Positions 1-18,000 of a DNA stretch of 64,000 nucleotides are shown here, piece after piece; position 1 is the first letter of the stretch; every line of letters starts with the position of its first letter. The position numbers were made by a program. Source of the stretch: Octopus vulgaris (Eukaryota). The DNA lies in contig OX597823.1 of the NCBI GenBank assembly GCA_951406725.2, forward strand, positions 16,864,001-16,928,000. The letters run 5' to 3'.

Positions 1-3000
1 TTGTTCAAGGATGCAGTGCATCACTCTGTCTAAGAATTGAACCCATGAACCTATGTTTGTGAACCCAACATCCTGAGCCTTCACAAAAGTTTAATAAATA
101 GCAAGAAATTGGTTTGTTATTATGAAATTAAACTGATTTTAGTTCAATAAATTTAAAATGGAATTTTTGAAAATTATGATTTAGAGTAAGAATTGTAATT
201 TTGGCAGAAAACACTTTTTTATGTTAGGGTGGGGTGAAGAATGTTCTGCCATCATAGAACCTCACAAAGAATGGTGCAAACAAGCTCCCTTTAAATGGGA
301 AAACTAAGTTCAAATGACTGCAGTACAGGAATTCTGCAATAGCATTAACCCTTTAGTGTTTAAACCAGCCAAATCCGGCCCAATATATTCTACATGTTTT
401 ATATTCAAACTGGCGATATCTAGCCTCTCACTCCTAACCTACAATGCCATTCTGAAAATAAACAATCACATCATTGAAACCTCAAAGCTATAAGATAATG
501 CATGATTAATTCAAAACAATTTGAGTGAAAAAGTATTACATTTAACAGAGTATTCTGAACACTAAAAGGTTAAACTTTGAGCTACCATATTTCTGTTGAA
601 ATGCACTGCCATTGTCTATTAATTTTGGAAGTTGTGAAGAATTCATTTAAATAACTTTGTCATTATGAAGCTAATGTTTGGAACATGACATGAGATTTTG
701 ATGGCAGGTTTTACTTCAGATCATTTTAAAACAGGGAATGTCTATGATTCAACCAGGAGTGACGTTATTACATGGTTTGGGATCAAAAAGATTAAACCAA
801 GTGATAAATAAAGTCAACCACCCAAGAACAGGAACAGAAATGAACTCTACAACAAGCTACCACAGAATCCCCAACTATCCAGTTCCACTCTTTAGACTTT
901 AGCTGACCTGAGACTGTTGTACAAGACCCTAATCCAGGGTACCATACAGTAGAAACTGACCTGAAAACAAACCTCTTCATTATACACAGCCATATATAAT
1001 GATTGCAGAAATAAATAAATAAGAGAACTTACAAAAGAAATGAGGTAAAACAAAGAATAAAATACTGCAATAGGAAAGAACTAGCATGGCAGTAGATGGA
1101 ATGAATTGGATATTCTTGACAAATGGTAACTTTCCTTATATTCTTGAAATCTTTTGTAAACAGTGTTGATTAGAATTTCTAAATGTTTGTAGGCAGGAGT
1201 ATTATTAATTTCTTTATTTTCTTCTGTTTAACTGTATTTACAAACTGTAAAGAAAAAGGATAAAATTCTTGGGACTTCAAATTCTTAGGTTTTTGGGGGT
1301 TTTTTTTTTTTAATACATCAACAAAACTGAAAGTCTGACAGAGATCTGGGGATATATTTTTTAATGTTTGGCCAATATTATTGCATCTTAGCTTTTATAA
1401 TACATCGTCTGGCAGTTATGACAAAGATTTTTTATAACTGAACAATAGATAGAAACATACATATACATATATAGAATATCAGGAAAGTCAGGAGGTATGA
1501 GATGGAGATATTTATGTCACCAGTTGATATCTATAGGATGACAATCGTTTCACAAACAACATCATGAGGAAATGATTTACTTTAATGTATAATAAAATAT
1601 TTTACATGTCTGCACTTTTGTGCATGTTATAAATTACATAGTACTATTGTACATTTGACAAACAAATGCAGGTATAGAAGGCTTGCTCATCAGATCAGCA
1701 GCATGCCATGGTTACATCCATTTTTCAACTTTAATATACACCTGTCACAGCTCCCAACTACTCTTTGCATACTCTGCCTGGTATAATATGTCACCCAGGA
1801 CAGGACAGGCTGAGGAGTCAGTGCCACACAGGGCAATATTCAAGTATGAGGGGAGACATCCATGTACTGCATCGCCGCATCTCGTAGAAGAGAAAGAGCA
1901 TGCCTTTGTGCAAGTCAGGGAAGAAGTCAACCCCCAAATGCACGGTGCACATCATAGTGGGAAAAGGGGACAATAACCTCTGTGAATTCTAGGAACAATG
2001 TGTCTGTTGATGGCATGCCACAACATGTTTTGGATGTGTGCAGGTAGATGGAGCCAACAATAATGGACAAGAGGACAAAGCCAGCAGCAACATGCCAGGA
2101 ACTGAGGCCAGTCCTGAAGTCCCATGGCGGTCACAGAGGGACCGGTGCCCTCCTCACTGGTTGGCTGATTATGAGACAAGTTAAGGCATGTCGTAAGGGT
2201 TGAGGAGAGGATGTGGGCAGGTTGGTTGAATGATCTTCCTGAGTGCTATAAGCATCACCATCAATTCATAGTCAGAGGCCTGGCTGTGCAGTAAAGAAGT
2301 TTGTTTCCCAACCACTTGGTTTTGAGTTCAGTCCCACTGTGTGACACCTTGGATAAGTGTCATCTACTTTAGCCTTGAGATGACCAATGTCACCTTGTCA
2401 ACAAAGGAAACTGCATGAGTGTATGTGTGCGTCTGTGTGCGCATATTAACTTCTCTTCACCATCCACTTTCACTTGCTTGCATCATGGCTCAGAGAGAAT
2501 CTACTGGGGCAGATTCTGTATGACTGGATGTCTTTCTTGTAGCCAAACAAAGCCTTGTTAAAGGATTTGGTGCAGAGAAACTGAAGGAAGCCTTGAGTAC
2601 ACATACACGCATATAACAGACATACATATTGCATAGTGGGGTAATAACTCGCTGACATTTTTGGGCCGTTGTTAATCACGTGTGTGATGTCTTTCAAAGA
2701 AATATGGCATAATCTACATTTACAGTTGTATCTTGTAACTCCAACGGCTTCACTGTCTCTTTTGTTAATTAGATATTTAGTTGGCAGTTTCCTGTTCTTG
2801 GACTGTAAATGTACAGCCTTTGAAGTATGATGTGACATAGACATCATGAGTTCTAAAGAGGCTTTGCTTCGTGTCAATATTACTATCTTCTTCGAGTCTA
2901 CAAGAAACATATCCATGTATGGTCTTTTTTTTGGTATGCTGAGTCTTTTCATCTTCAGGTCTTCTTTAAGGTATCCGAAATCCAGCTGATTTGGGGTTGT

Positions 3001-15000: not shown

Positions 15001-18000
15001 AACCTAAGAATTTGAAGTCCCAAGAATTTTATCCTTTTTCTTTACAGTTTGTAAATACAGTTAAACAGAAGAAAATAAAGAAATTAATAATACTCCTGTC
15101 TACAAACATTTAGAAATTCTAATCAACACTGTTTACAAAAGATTTCAAGAATATAAGGAAAGTTACCATTTGTCAAGAATATCCAATTCGTTCCATCTAC
15201 TGCCATGCTAGTTCTATCCTATTGCAGTATTTTATTCTTTGTTTTACCTCATTTCTTTTGTAAGTTCTCTTATTTATTTATTTCTGCAATCATTATGTAT
15301 GGCTGTGTATAATGAAGAGGTTTGTTTTCAGGTCAGTTTCTACTGTATGGTACCCTGGATTAGGGTCTTGTACAACAGTCTCAGGTCAGCTAAAATCTAA
15401 AGTGTGGAACTGGATAGTTGGGGATTCTGTGGTAGCCTGTTGTAGAGTTCATTTCTGTTCCTGTTCTTGGGTGGTTGACCTTATCTATCACTTGGTTTAA
15501 TCTTTTTGATCCCAAACCACATAGTAACGTCACTCCTGGTTGAATCATAGACATTCCCTGTTTTAAATTCATCTGAAGTAAAACCTGCCATCAAAATCTC
15601 ATGTCATGTTCCAAACATTTGCTTCATAATGACAAAGTTATTTAAATGAATTCTTCACAACTTCCAAAATTAATAGACAATGGCAGTGCATTTCAACAGA
15701 AATATGGTAGCTCAAAGTTTAATGCTATTGCAGAATTCCCGTACTGCAGTCATTTGAACTTGGTTTTCCCATTTAAAGGGAGCTTGTTTGCACCATTCTT
15801 TGTGAGGTTCTATGATGACAGAACAGGAAATGTGTCAAGCCCAACAGGAAACAGTATTTCCTAGGGCTACACAACAGTAGCATTCTTCCCTTTCATGGGA
15901 CTGTCACATTAAGTTGACAACATGCTATCACCTTATCATGCTGCTACTGCATGAATCTCTCTCAGAGATTTAGTATTTTTCAACTCTTTTTTCTAGTAAC
16001 ACTGGTACTTTGTGTACCCTCAATTATAATTAATAATTTATTATAAATTTCTACACACACATATTTATATGCACAGGTGTGTCTGTGTAGTAAGAAGCTT
16101 GTTTCCCAACCATATGGTTCCAGGTTCAGTCTCACTATGTGGCACCTATAGCTTCAGGCTGACCAGTGCCTTGTGAGTATATATATATCTGAATATATTT
16201 ATATTGTACTAGCAGTATCCGCACAAAGTTTTTAGGACAGGTATCTTATAGTCGTGATTCATATCGAGCCCTTCTGGGTATTAGCGCGCGTCTACGATGA
16301 GTCTACGAATTTACAAATAATTTACCATCATTTTTTTCCATTTTAATGCATTTTTTAAAAATAAAGTGAATGGTTACCTCTATGGAGTGAATGGTTACCT
16401 CTATGGAAATATATACACACACATTATACATAGAAGTAACTCTCAAACTTCACACCAATATGCGTGCTCATATGCGACGTAATATCACATCAGCAGCATT
16501 TCCTCACACCCTCCTTGCACTTGGCGAAGGCAAAATACCAGGGGATGAAAATGGTAATATTGCCATCGATTCCATTTGTACCATTGTTAAGACGCCTTCT
16601 GATCTCAGAGATGCAGTGTTCCCAGATCTACAAGCTAATTATCAGAATATGGATTGGATTGGCAAAAAGGCTATACTGGCCCCGAGGAATAAAACTGTTC
16701 ACCATATTAATGATAAAATGCTAAAACTCATTCCTGGGGAAGTCTATGTATATCAGTCTATCGATACAACTCCTGACCCAGAGGATGTCATCAACTATCC
16801 AATAGAGGTACTCAATTCCTTTGAGCACCCCGGACTACCACCACACTTTCTCAAATTTAAAGTTGGTGCCCCTATAATGCTCATCAGAAATTTGGTTCCC
16901 CCCAAAACAATGCAATGGCACACGTTTGATCGTTAAGTCCTTATCTCCCACCGTAAGCTTATATCAATATTTGCCTGAATAATCATCATAATTCAGTGCA
17001 ATCATTAACAGTACACTCAAGCAATTCAGCCCCGAGCAACGCCGGGCAATTCTGCTAGTATATATATATAGGCACAGGAGTGGCTGTGTGGTAAGTAGCT
17101 TGCTAACCAACCACATGGTTCCGGGTTCAGTCCCACTGCCTGGCATCTTGGGCAAGTGTCTTCTGCTATAGCCCCGGGCCGACAAACGCCTTGTGAGTGG
17201 ATTTGGTAGACGGAAACTGAAAGAAGCCTGTCGTATATATATATATATATATATATATATATGTGTGTGTGTTTGTGTGTCTGTGTTTGTGCCCCTAGCA
17301 TTGTTTGACAACCGATGCTGGTGTGTTTATGTCCCCATCACTTAGCGGTTCGGCAAAAGAGACCGATAGAATAAGTACTGGGCTTACAAAGAATAAGTCC
17401 CGGGGTCGATTTGCTCGACTAAAGGCGGTGCTCCAGCATGGCTGCAGTCAAATGACTGAAACAAGTAAAAGAGTAAAGAGAATACACACACACACATACA
17501 CATACACACACACACACAGACAGACTGACAAACACATATGTATGTATCTGTGTGTGTGTGTCTTTTTGTCTGTTTGTCTCCCCCCACCCCACAAGCTTGG
17601 CAACCAGTGTTGCTGTGTTTGTGTCCCCATAACTTAGCAGTTTGGCAAAGAGATCAATAGAATAAGTAGCAGGCTTAAAGGAAAATTAAAGGAAAATTGG
17701 GTTAATTCGTTCGATTAGAAATTCTTCAAGGTGGTGCCCCAGCATGGCCACAGTCTAGTGACTGAAACAAGTAAAACATAAAAGCTATGTGCATGTGTGT
17801 TTGCTGCCTTTGTTGTGACCTCTCGTGATGACTGTAAACAAGCATCACCATCATAAAGGCAGTGTCCCTTGTTACCAGTTTTATGGAAAAAGGTGAGGGT
17901 TGGTGACAGGAACAGCATCTAGTTGTAGAAAATCTGCCTCAACAAATTCCGCCTGACCCATGCAAGCATGGGAAAGGTAGATATTGAAATGATGATAATG

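What the first reader, a model, noticed from the sequence alone, without database searches (positions are those of the whole stretch)
242..15825. Inverted duplication gives two head-to-head copies of the same signal-peptide exon
Seen: arms 242-2797 and 13489-15825 are near-identical by eye. Each holds an intact 212-nt exon (acceptor, 5' UTR, gccATG, signal peptide, GTAAGT donor): + at 15048-15259 and - at 1033-1244. The only coding difference is synonymous. Homology stops ~0.55 kb into the next intron. Inference: two divergently transcribed genes share an identical leader cassette, maintained by recent duplication or gene conversion. Recombination between the arms would flip the ~10.7 kb interior without damaging either gene, which could act as an inversion polymorphism or switch.
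Basis: partly seen in the sequence, partly recalled or inferred. Interest (0 to 1): 0.8.

Follow-up and report, generated by a model that had tools for sequence, protein, structure and literature searches.

The report
Inverted 2.3 kb duplication, doubtful exon
A 2.3 kb stretch of repeat-rich, octopus-like DNA was copied once in reverse orientation about 11 kb away, probably by a replication slip, and the "signal-peptide exon" it carries has no support as part of a gene, so the finding is largely ordinary.

Summary
The inverted repeat is real. Arms 242-2797 and 13489-15825 align over 2330 columns at 97.8% identity once a 221-nt TTAA-flanked MITE (349-569) is removed from the left arm.

Nothing supports the gene reading. 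No Pfam domain turns up downstream of either copy. No protein carries the leader peptide. The segment is no better conserved than the rest of the arm (p=0.29).

A 10-mer, GAACAGGAAA, occurs only three times in the window: at the inner start of both arms and across the right arm's outer breakpoint. I infer from this that the right arm is a templated inverted insertion made by two microhomology-guided template switches (MMBIR/FoSTeS-like). The plus copy would then be an orphan fragment. At most the minus copy could belong to a gene, and its later exons would lie off-window.

Inversion between the arms is possible in principle but untested. Interest is low.

The parts
242..2797 (-). Left arm of the inverted duplication, inferred to be the donor (original) copy. 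It includes a later MITE insertion at 349-569.
   Evidence: 97.8% identical to the right arm over 2330 columns; sharp ends. Its outer flank (241 downward) does not continue the 10-mer.
349..569 (.). 221-nt MITE with 12-nt terminal inverted repeats (CCYTTTAGTGTT) and a TTAA target duplication (345-348 and 570-573). It is absent from the right arm.
   Evidence: the right arm shows the empty site with a single TTAA at 15719-15722. That a TTAA duplication marks piggyBac-type elements is recalled knowledge.
13489..15825 (+). Right arm of the inverted duplication, inferred to be the derived copy (a templated insertion).
15821..15830 (+). The 10-mer GAACAGGAAA across the right arm's outer breakpoint (last 5 nt of the arm plus first 5 nt of the flank). 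It is identical to the first 10 nt of the arm at 13489-13498, and to 2797-2788 on the minus strand.
   Evidence: 3 matches in the window, 0.18 expected, and 0 of 100 shuffles reach 3. Searches give the flanking sequences.
15048..15259 (+). Exon-like segment, plus copy: acceptor, a 157-nt ATG-free leader, ATG at 15205, 18 hydrophobic codons, then a GTAAGT donor. Inferred to be an orphan partial copy.
   Evidence: No protein or Pfam support.
1033..1244 (-). Exon-like segment, minus copy, differing at 3 of 212 nt. It is the only copy that could still belong to a gene. Any later exons would lie left of the window start.
2798..13488 (.). 10.7 kb spacer made largely of repeat debris. It holds reverse-transcriptase-like frames at 3090-4130 (minus), microsatellites, MITE and foldback copies, and a 136-nt tandem repeat at 12836-13103.
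   Evidence: Pfam finds no cellular gene in it.
8666..9689 (.). A roughly 1 kb self-palindromic (foldback-type) element at the centre of the spacer.
   Evidence: arm pairs 8666-8733/9622-9689 (97%), 8761-8821/9563-9623 (97%), 8972-9023/9444-9495 (100%) and 9223-9288/9380-9445 (92%).
5743..8242 (.). Composite repeat 'X-U-X', carrying a 1.8 kb insertion of a second MITE family at 6248-8073. Its inverted partner is 10313-10892.
   Evidence: U: 6013-6238 versus 10703-10478, 99%. X copies also occur at 61711-61943.
16391..16933 (+). Pif1-type helicase fragment (Helitron-like) just outside the right arm. It is context only.
   Evidence: Pif1_2B, 39.3 bits against a cut-off of 23.9; best hit is Octopus bimaculoides LOC128247667, 72% identity.

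Best explanation
This is a genuine, fairly recent inverted duplication of 2.33 kb of non-genic, repeat-rich DNA in a cephalopod-like genome. The right arm (13489-15825) is the derived copy. I infer the following sequence of events. A growing plus strand had copied the target up to the 10-mer GAACAGGAAA. It then annealed through that 10-mer to the opposite strand of the left arm about 10.7 kb behind and copied 2.33 kb. It returned to the original template through the 5-nt GAACA and continued. That amounts to two microhomology-guided template switches of the FoSTeS/MMBIR type. Since then the arms have drifted apart neutrally to 2.2% difference, and the left arm has gained a TTAA-type MITE. The exon-like 212-nt segment was copied passively. 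It is most likely a chance configuration in T-rich DNA, or at best an unverified exon of one gene on the minus strand. The plus copy is an orphan. Shown here: the repeat, its ends, the MITE, the 10-mer, and the absence of coding support. Inferred: the mechanism, its polarity and the age.
For: The arms are 97.8% identical over 2330 columns with evenly spread mismatches. By hand from the counts, the 11 full 200-nt bins have mean 4.4 and variance 2.7, and the transition:transversion ratio is 36:15. Both ends are sharp, with no target-site duplication and no terminal inverted repeats at 241/242 or 15825/15826. GAACAGGAAA occurs 3 times in the window, at both arm starts and across the right outer breakpoint; 0.18 are expected and 0 of 100 shuffles reach 3. 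The left arm's outer flank does not continue the motif. The MITE with its TTAA duplication is in one arm only. The window holds no N. The MMBIR model describes 3' tails annealing at microhomology, multiple template switches and duplicated segments in either orientation (PMC2621351, passages read). Against coding: only 1 of 202 ORFs of 70 aa or more passes a Pfam cut-off, and it is a Pif1 helicase fragment. 0 of 150 plus 0 of 11 plus-strand ORFs of 40-69 aa downstream of the plus copy match Pfam. 0 of 12 minus-strand ORFs downstream of the minus copy match. The 51-aa frame holding the leader has no true hit. The segment shows 3/212 differences against 48/2118 in the rest of the arm, p=0.29. A 105-aa ORF that is open in both arms has 8 nonsynonymous and 0 synonymous codon changes. 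The coding part is 56% T.
Against: The complete exon-like configuration is rare in simulated sequence. That configuration is a strong acceptor, no ATG in the leader, a purine at -3, a hydrophobic ORF and a GTAAGT donor. It appeared in 1 of 200 simulated windows under the whole-window model and 2 of 200 under the arm-composition model. I fitted those criteria after seeing the candidate. The looser form occurs 0.29 times per window. A real exon therefore cannot be dismissed. The protein searches are weak for an 18-residue peptide: an exact match would score near the E=10 limit, and the 5 word-sharing candidates were not shown. It is also unknown whether this species' gene set is in the databases. 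No transcript data and no other eukaryotic genome could be consulted. Collinear inverted patches inside the spacer could mean an older, larger palindrome. The template-switch reading rests on one 10-mer.
Confidence: 0.6

Rival explanations
1. The minus copy is a true second exon (5' UTR plus signal peptide) of an unannotated secreted or membrane protein gene that continues left of the window. The plus copy is a dead partial duplicate.
For: The splice-like sites are strong, the 157-nt leader has no ATG, -3 is G, and the intron phase is 1. The full configuration appeared in only 1 of 200 and 2 of 200 simulated windows. It is the only candidate in the real window that is not derived from a microsatellite.
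Against: No protein carries the leader. There is no constraint signal. The peptide has no charged n-region, and its hydrophobicity follows from 56% T. The surroundings show only transposon fragments. The criteria were set after the fact.
Confidence: 0.15
2. One reading: two functional, divergently transcribed genes share the leader exon, and recombination between the arms flips the 10.7 kb interior as a polymorphism or switch.
For: Inverted arms of 2.3 kb at 97.8% identity are a possible substrate for homologous recombination. Both exon-like copies are intact.
Against: The duplicated unit ends 566 nt past the donor, so the derived copy brought no downstream exons. No Pfam-recognisable exon lies in the 48 kb downstream of the plus copy. 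No recombinase was found in the interior. Perfect-identity tracts are at most 182 nt. Nothing shows two orientations.
Confidence: 0.03
3. Assembly artefact: the second arm is an allelic haplotype or fold-back chimera placed wrongly in inverted orientation.
For: False duplications from unmerged haplotypes are common in assemblies (PMC9516828; search listing and start of abstract only). A 2.2% difference plus an insertion polymorphism could be allelic in a variable region.
Against: The window has no gap. The arms are separated by 10.7 kb of unrelated sequence. The junction carries a 10-nt plus 5-nt microhomology signature that fits a biological template switch. Octopus heterozygosity is stated to be below the 1.03% of cuttlefish (PMC13218726, passage), lower than the 2.2% seen here. 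That comparison applies only if the window is from an octopus.
Confidence: 0.07
4. The arms are the best-preserved part of an older palindrome, or of a long-terminal-repeat or foldback transposon, reaching from 242 to 15825 with its centre near 9.3 kb. Its outer part would be kept alike by arm-to-arm gene conversion.
For: Collinear inverted patches lie inside the spacer: 4509-4979/11381-10913 (77-93%), 5744-5899/10892-10741 (90%), 6013-6238/10703-10478 (99%), 8075-8222/10466-10313 (93.5%), and a central self-palindrome at 8666-9689.
Against: Most patches belong to multi-copy repeat families also seen at 48.1 kb and 61.7 kb. They reduce to about two independent pairs, so the collinearity is not significant (my estimate is about 1 in 8). 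Their identities (77-99%) do not fit one event. 2798-4508 and 11382-13488 share no inverted homology. There is no target duplication at the outer ends. No transposase or polymerase was found inside. Mismatches in the arms are not clustered as conversion tracts would make them.
Confidence: 0.1

Closest known systems
Replication-based template-switch rearrangements (FoSTeS / MMBIR)
   Same: A segment is copied in inverted orientation from a nearby template. The junctions carry short microhomology (10 nt and 5 nt here). Two switches restore the original template. This matches the model's description in PMC2621351 (passages read).
   Different: The events described in that paper are mostly tens to hundreds of kb in human patients. 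This one is 2.33 kb, fixed in a reference sequence of an invertebrate, and known from one junction reading only. The ancestral empty site was not seen.
Inverted low-copy repeats that mediate inversions by non-allelic homologous recombination (for example the F8 intron 22 inversion)
   Same: Two inverted copies flank a spacer, so crossover between them would flip it. The recurrent F8 inversion is mentioned in the abstract of PMC7507428 (search listing).
   Different: Those repeats are longer and more alike (recalled, not checked). Here identical tracts are at most 182 nt, and no second orientation is documented.
Partial gene duplicates and orphan 5' exons
   Same: If the minus copy is a real exon, the plus copy is a 5' fragment duplicated without the rest of the gene.
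   Different: It has not been shown that any gene exists here.
Prokaryotic invertible-DNA switches (invertons, shufflons)
   Same: Only the geometry: inverted repeats around an invertible segment.
   Different: Those use short repeats and a dedicated site-specific recombinase (recalled). No recombinase was found in the interior, and this is a eukaryotic, transposon-filled spacer.
piggyBac-type MITEs
   Same: The 349-569 insert has a TTAA duplication, short terminal inverted repeats beginning CC, small size, no ORF, and an exact empty site in the paralogous arm. PiggyBac elements are listed among recently active families in Octopus vulgaris (PMC13282606, Table 1 passage).
   Different: No autonomous partner or other copy was seen in this window.

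Membership tests
Inverted segmental duplication | Two copies of at least 1 kb, at least 90% identical, in opposite orientation | tested here: met
   2330 aligned columns at 97.8% identity.
Inverted segmental duplication | Not explained as a transposon insertion (no target duplication, no terminal inverted repeats of its own, no transposition genes) | tested here: met
   The flanks at 241/242 and 15825/15826 share no duplication. Pfam finds no transposase or polymerase in 242-15825. The genome-wide copy number could not be tested.
MMBIR/FoSTeS templated insertion | Microhomology at the junctions between target and copied segment | tested here: met
   A 10-nt match at entry and a 5-nt match at return. 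The motif occurs 3 times in the window against 0.18 expected.
MMBIR/FoSTeS templated insertion | An ancestral or allelic empty target site exists | not testable with these tools
   No eukaryotic genome collection was available. The window holds no paralogous empty site.
Signal-peptide (leader) exon of a protein-coding gene | ATG-started hydrophobic stretch bounded by splice-like sites | tested here: met
   Kyte-Doolittle maximum 2.46 over 12 residues, GTAAGT donor, pyrimidine-rich acceptor.
Signal-peptide (leader) exon of a protein-coding gene | In-phase downstream exons encoding a mature protein | tested here: not met
   Plus copy: 0 of 161 ORFs of 40-69 aa. Among ORFs of 70 aa or more, the only Pfam match above cut-off was a transposon fragment. 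Minus copy: only 1032 nt remain in the window, and 0 of 12 ORFs match. Domains unknown to Pfam would be missed.
Signal-peptide (leader) exon of a protein-coding gene | Homologous or annotated proteins carrying the leader | tested here: not met
   The single hit, P0003, is a translated 19-copy tandem repeat. The test is weak for 18 residues.
Signal-peptide (leader) exon of a protein-coding gene | Purifying selection relative to flanking sequence | tested here: inconclusive
   3/212 against 48/2118 differences, p=0.29. There are too few changes to decide.
Signal-peptide (leader) exon of a protein-coding gene | Transcription and splicing | not testable with these tools
   No RNA data were available.
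Invertible-DNA switch | Both orientations of the interior occur, and a recombinase or recombination hot spot is present | not testable with these tools
   Only one sequence was available. No recombinase domain was found in the interior.
piggyBac-type MITE (349-569) | TTAA target duplication, terminal inverted repeats, exact empty site | tested here: met
   The link from TTAA to piggyBac is recalled, not tested.
False duplication (assembly error) | Halved read depth, no spanning reads, adjacency to gaps | not testable with these tools
   Only the absence of N could be checked.

The most novel reading that the evidence does not exclude
The minus copy is the real leader exon of an unannotated cephalopod secreted-protein gene. 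The template-switch event created a second, divergently oriented promoter-proximal copy. The two 2.3 kb arms then allow the 10.7 kb interior to flip by homologous recombination, exchanging upstream regulatory DNA between the gene and its orphan twin. That would be a young inversion polymorphism caught at birth.
Probability: 0.03. Interest if true: 0.55.

Novelty: new member of a known kind. Interest (0 to 1): 0.15.

Why it matters
As it stands it matters little. It is one more small inverted duplication in a genome that appears to be about two-thirds repeats if it is an octopus (PMC13282606, passage). Its modest value is as a clean example in which both breakpoints, the microhomology and the direction of copying can be read from the sequence alone. 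It also shows that an attractive exon-like segment can be duplicated as a passenger. If the minus copy proved to be a real exon, the locus would show how a partial 5' gene copy arises by template switching.

Tried and rejected
- **Rfam and tRNA scans:** Rfam on the whole window gave 0 matches and ARAGORN found 0 tRNAs.
- **Searching the 18-aa peptide alone:** this was not possible because the minimum query is 40 aa. The natural 51-aa stop-to-stop frame around it was used instead.
- **The one representative-library hit:** P0003 (E=3.5e-10) was rejected. It consists of 19 tandem copies of a short unit, and the score is summed over 19 stretches at 39% identity.
- **Long-terminal-repeat transposon (Polinton or foldback type) for the whole 15.6 kb:** rejected for lack of a target duplication and of any transposition gene.
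- **LINE 3' transduction of the left arm:** considered because reverse-transcriptase-like frames abut it at 2798. Rejected because the right arm is not preceded by the same sequence and the left arm is not followed by a poly(A) tail.
- **The 385-nt direct match 3480-3862 / 12188-12572 (97%):** read as two copies of a young repeat family, with a third, older copy at 24737-24864. It is not taken as part of the duplication.
- **Empty-site paralogue of the right-arm target:** none was found in the window.
- **Literature on octopus inverted duplications:** the search gave nothing relevant; 2 of the 3 papers holding the terms were listed, and both are on human genetics.
- **Collections not consulted:** The genome collection holds only bacteria and archaea and was not used. 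No related eukaryotic locus was therefore examined.
- **Supplementary tables:** those of the octopus repeat paper could not be read. They might have named the MITE and foldback families.
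Full report
**What is in the sequence**

The window has no N. It is AT-rich, at 30-48% G+C per 2 kb. It is crowded with microsatellites, minisatellites and transposon fragments.

The inverted repeat is real. By blastn, 570-2797 matches 15722-13489 at 97.5% over 2235 nt, and 242-356 matches 15825-15711. The apparent break at 357-569 is a 221-nt MITE at 349-569. It has 12-nt terminal inverted repeats and TTAA on both sides, and the right arm keeps the empty site with one TTAA.

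With the MITE taken out, the arms align over 2330 columns with 51 mismatches (36 transitions, 15 transversions) and 4 small indels, which is 97.8% identity. Mismatches are spread evenly, 2-7 per 200 nt. Both ends of the homology are sharp.

**The exon-like segment**

The plus copy has a pyrimidine-rich acceptor ending at 15047, then a 157-nt leader with no ATG. The ATG is at 15205 with G at -3. It is followed by 18 codons (MLVLSYCSILFFVLPHFF) plus one base, then GTAAGT at 15260. The minus copy mirrors this at 1244-1033. The copies differ at 3 of 212 positions, and the only difference in the frame is CTA/CTT, both Leu.

**Is the segment more than chance?**

In the real window, the only other ATG-hydrophobic-GTAAGT candidates come from (TG)n tracts (6 ATG-donor combinations at 4 loci, two of which are the arm copies).

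In 150 simulated windows (order-3 Markov model), this loose configuration arises 0.29 times per 64 kb, and 27% of windows have at least one. I then added a strong acceptor 50-300 nt upstream, an ATG-free leader and a purine at -3. With those, the rate falls to 1 in 200 windows (whole-window model) or 2 in 200 (arm-composition model).

I chose those extra criteria after seeing the candidate, so they overstate its rarity. Even so, the segment cannot be waved away as trivial.

**Tests of the gene reading**

The exon was examined on its own.

- **Protein searches.** The 18-residue peptide is below the search minimum, so I used the window's natural 51-aa stop-to-stop frame that contains it, 15157-15309. 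Among proteins of 91-2000 aa, 5 candidates shared words and none reached E≤10. Among proteins of 28-90 aa, none shared three words. In the 1.84-billion representative library there was one hit. It turned out to be a translated 19-copy tandem repeat matched in 19 stretches at 39% identity, so it is not a relative.
- **Pfam on long ORFs.** I scanned 202 ORFs of 70 aa or more from both strands; 34 of 236 were dropped beforehand for low complexity. Only one match passed a curated cut-off: a Pif1 helicase 2B domain at 16391-16933. There was also a sub-threshold RVT_1 match at 35726-35947.
- **Pfam on shorter ORFs.** Of the 161 plus-strand ORFs of 40-69 aa from 15157 to the window end, 0 of 150 and 0 of the remaining 11 matched. 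Fifteen minus-strand ORFs of 25 aa or more lie in or overlap 1-1032. I sent 12 of them and 0 matched. One of the other three had already been scanned. One is the twin of the exon frame. One lies upstream of the donor.
- **Selection.** The segment is not better conserved than the rest of the arm: 3/212 against 48/2118 differences, one-sided p=0.29. A 105-aa ORF open in both arms shows 8 nonsynonymous and 0 synonymous codon changes, so open frames in these arms carry no weight.
- **Composition.** The coding part is 56% T, which alone produces Phe/Leu/Ile-rich peptides.

These negatives are weak for an 18-residue leader and for lineage-specific proteins, but none of the available tests supports a gene.

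**Origin of the window**

The helicase fragment's best hit is an Octopus bimaculoides protein at 72% identity. Other frames resemble transposon proteins: DUF8422-type and reverse transcriptase (first hit 0.96, RVT_1 on 63% of that cluster's members). The window is therefore most likely from a cephalopod. The species was not determined.

**How the duplication arose**

The outer ends show no target-site duplication and no terminal inverted repeats of their own. The interior holds no transposition gene.

The 10-mer GAACAGGAAA occurs only three times in the window (0.18 expected; 0 of 100 shuffles reach 3). Two occurrences are the first ten bases of each arm at its inner end. The third straddles the right arm's outer breakpoint: the last five bases of the arm plus the first five of the flank. 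The left arm's outer flank is unrelated.

The simplest reading is as follows. The target once read "...GCACT" followed directly by the 10-mer and the present right flank. A growing strand that had just copied the 10-mer annealed to the same 10-mer on the opposite strand of the left arm. It copied 2.33 kb, then returned through the 5-nt GAACA and went on.

This is the pattern described for FoSTeS/MMBIR: 3' tails annealing at microhomology, several template switches, duplicated segments in either orientation, and a second switch restoring the chromosome (PMC2621351, passages read). The reverse polarity finds no microhomology at the left arm's junctions.

The mechanism and its direction are inferences from one junction. 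An empty site was not available.

If the right arm is the copy, the plus "exon" arrived with only 566 nt of its supposed intron and no later exons. It is an orphan. At most the minus copy could belong to a gene, and its later exons would lie beyond the window start.

Recombination between the arms could in principle invert the spacer. However, identical tracts are at most 182, 136 and 119 nt, and nothing here shows two orientations.

**Age**

The arms differ at 2.2% of sites. The octopus repeat paper equates Jukes-Cantor distances of 0.065, 0.09 and 0.2 with 18, 25 and 56 million years (PMC13282606, passage), which is about 0.0036 per million years. That gives roughly 3 million years per arm. 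This is an inference and holds only if the window comes from an octopus with a similar rate and there has been no gene conversion.

**The spacer**

2798-13488 holds the following:
- reverse-transcriptase-like frames at 3090-4130 on the minus strand;
- a roughly 1 kb self-palindromic element at 8666-9689;
- two inverted copies of a composite repeat, 5743-8242 and 10313-10892, the former split by a 1.8 kb insertion of another MITE family;
- a pair at 4509-4979/11381-10913 with 77-93% identity.

These patches are collinear in inverted order, so an older and larger palindrome is conceivable. I do not favour that reading. Most of the patches are multi-copy families, their identities are inconsistent with one event, and 2798-4508 and 11382-13488 share no inverted homology.

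**Artefact**

A haplotype placed wrongly cannot be excluded without reads; false duplications are common (PMC9516828, listing and start of abstract). Four observations argue against it:
- the window has no gaps;
- the arms are separated by a 10.7 kb spacer;
- the junction has a microhomology signature;
- the 2.2% divergence is above the octopus heterozygosity, which PMC13218726 states to be under the 1.03% of cuttlefish (passage).

**Verdict**

This is a new member of a known kind (a small microhomology-mediated inverted duplication), and its interest is low.

Noticed in passing
window 349-569: A 221-nt MITE with a TTAA duplication and 12-nt terminal inverted repeats is present in the left arm only. 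The right arm keeps the exact empty site, so the element moved after the duplication, or was excised precisely from the right arm.
   Followed up: yes
window 6248-8073, 8256-8663, 16240-16356, 48090-48449: A second MITE family with termini beginning ACTAGCAGTATCGCC is inserted in (TA)n tracts. Several copies are nested or inverted next to one another.
   Followed up: partly
window 8666-9689: A self-palindromic (foldback-type) element of about 1 kb whose ends resemble the 'X' repeat seen at 5743-5955, 8075-8242, 10313-10466, 10741-10892 and 61711-61943.
   Followed up: partly
window 33877-34571, 41012-41154, 45145-45483, 46620-47148, 51560-51732: A 62-68-nt G+C-rich minisatellite family recurs at least five times. 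The array at 33.9-34.6 kb lies in frames of 236-273 aa that are open in all three plus-strand frames. Copies at 33.5, 40.5 and 43.1 kb follow a repeat head whose translation holds a His run and ...FHASMG.... The same translated head also occurs at 57.5 kb, away from these arrays.
   Followed up: no
window 3480-3862 and 12188-12572 (also 24737-24864): A 385-nt stretch is 97% identical in direct orientation inside the otherwise non-homologous parts of the spacer, with an older third copy at 24.7 kb. It is probably a young repeat family. It is unexplained why two young copies lie close to the two arms.
   Followed up: partly
window 16391-16933 (+): A Pif1-type helicase fragment (Helitron-like). 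Its best hit is Octopus bimaculoides LOC128247667 at 72% identity, which is the only clue to the organism.
   Followed up: partly
window 55461-56387 (-): A 309-aa open frame with no Pfam match. It resembles DUF8422-type eukaryotic clusters in the protein atlas (score 0.95, low recognition value). It is probably part of a mobile element.
   Followed up: partly
window 57463-58209 and 9685-9918: Very long TA-rich microsatellites: a (TA)n tract at 9685-9918 and a tract at 57463-58209 seen only as Ile/Tyr-rich open frames. There is also a (TGG)n-like tract at 7101-7352 related to 25231-25382.
   Followed up: no
window 1-80 (-): The window starts inside a stretch with a tRNA-like box-B motif (GGTTCAATTC), judged by eye. 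It suggests a tRNA-derived SINE. ARAGORN and Rfam report nothing there.
   Followed up: no
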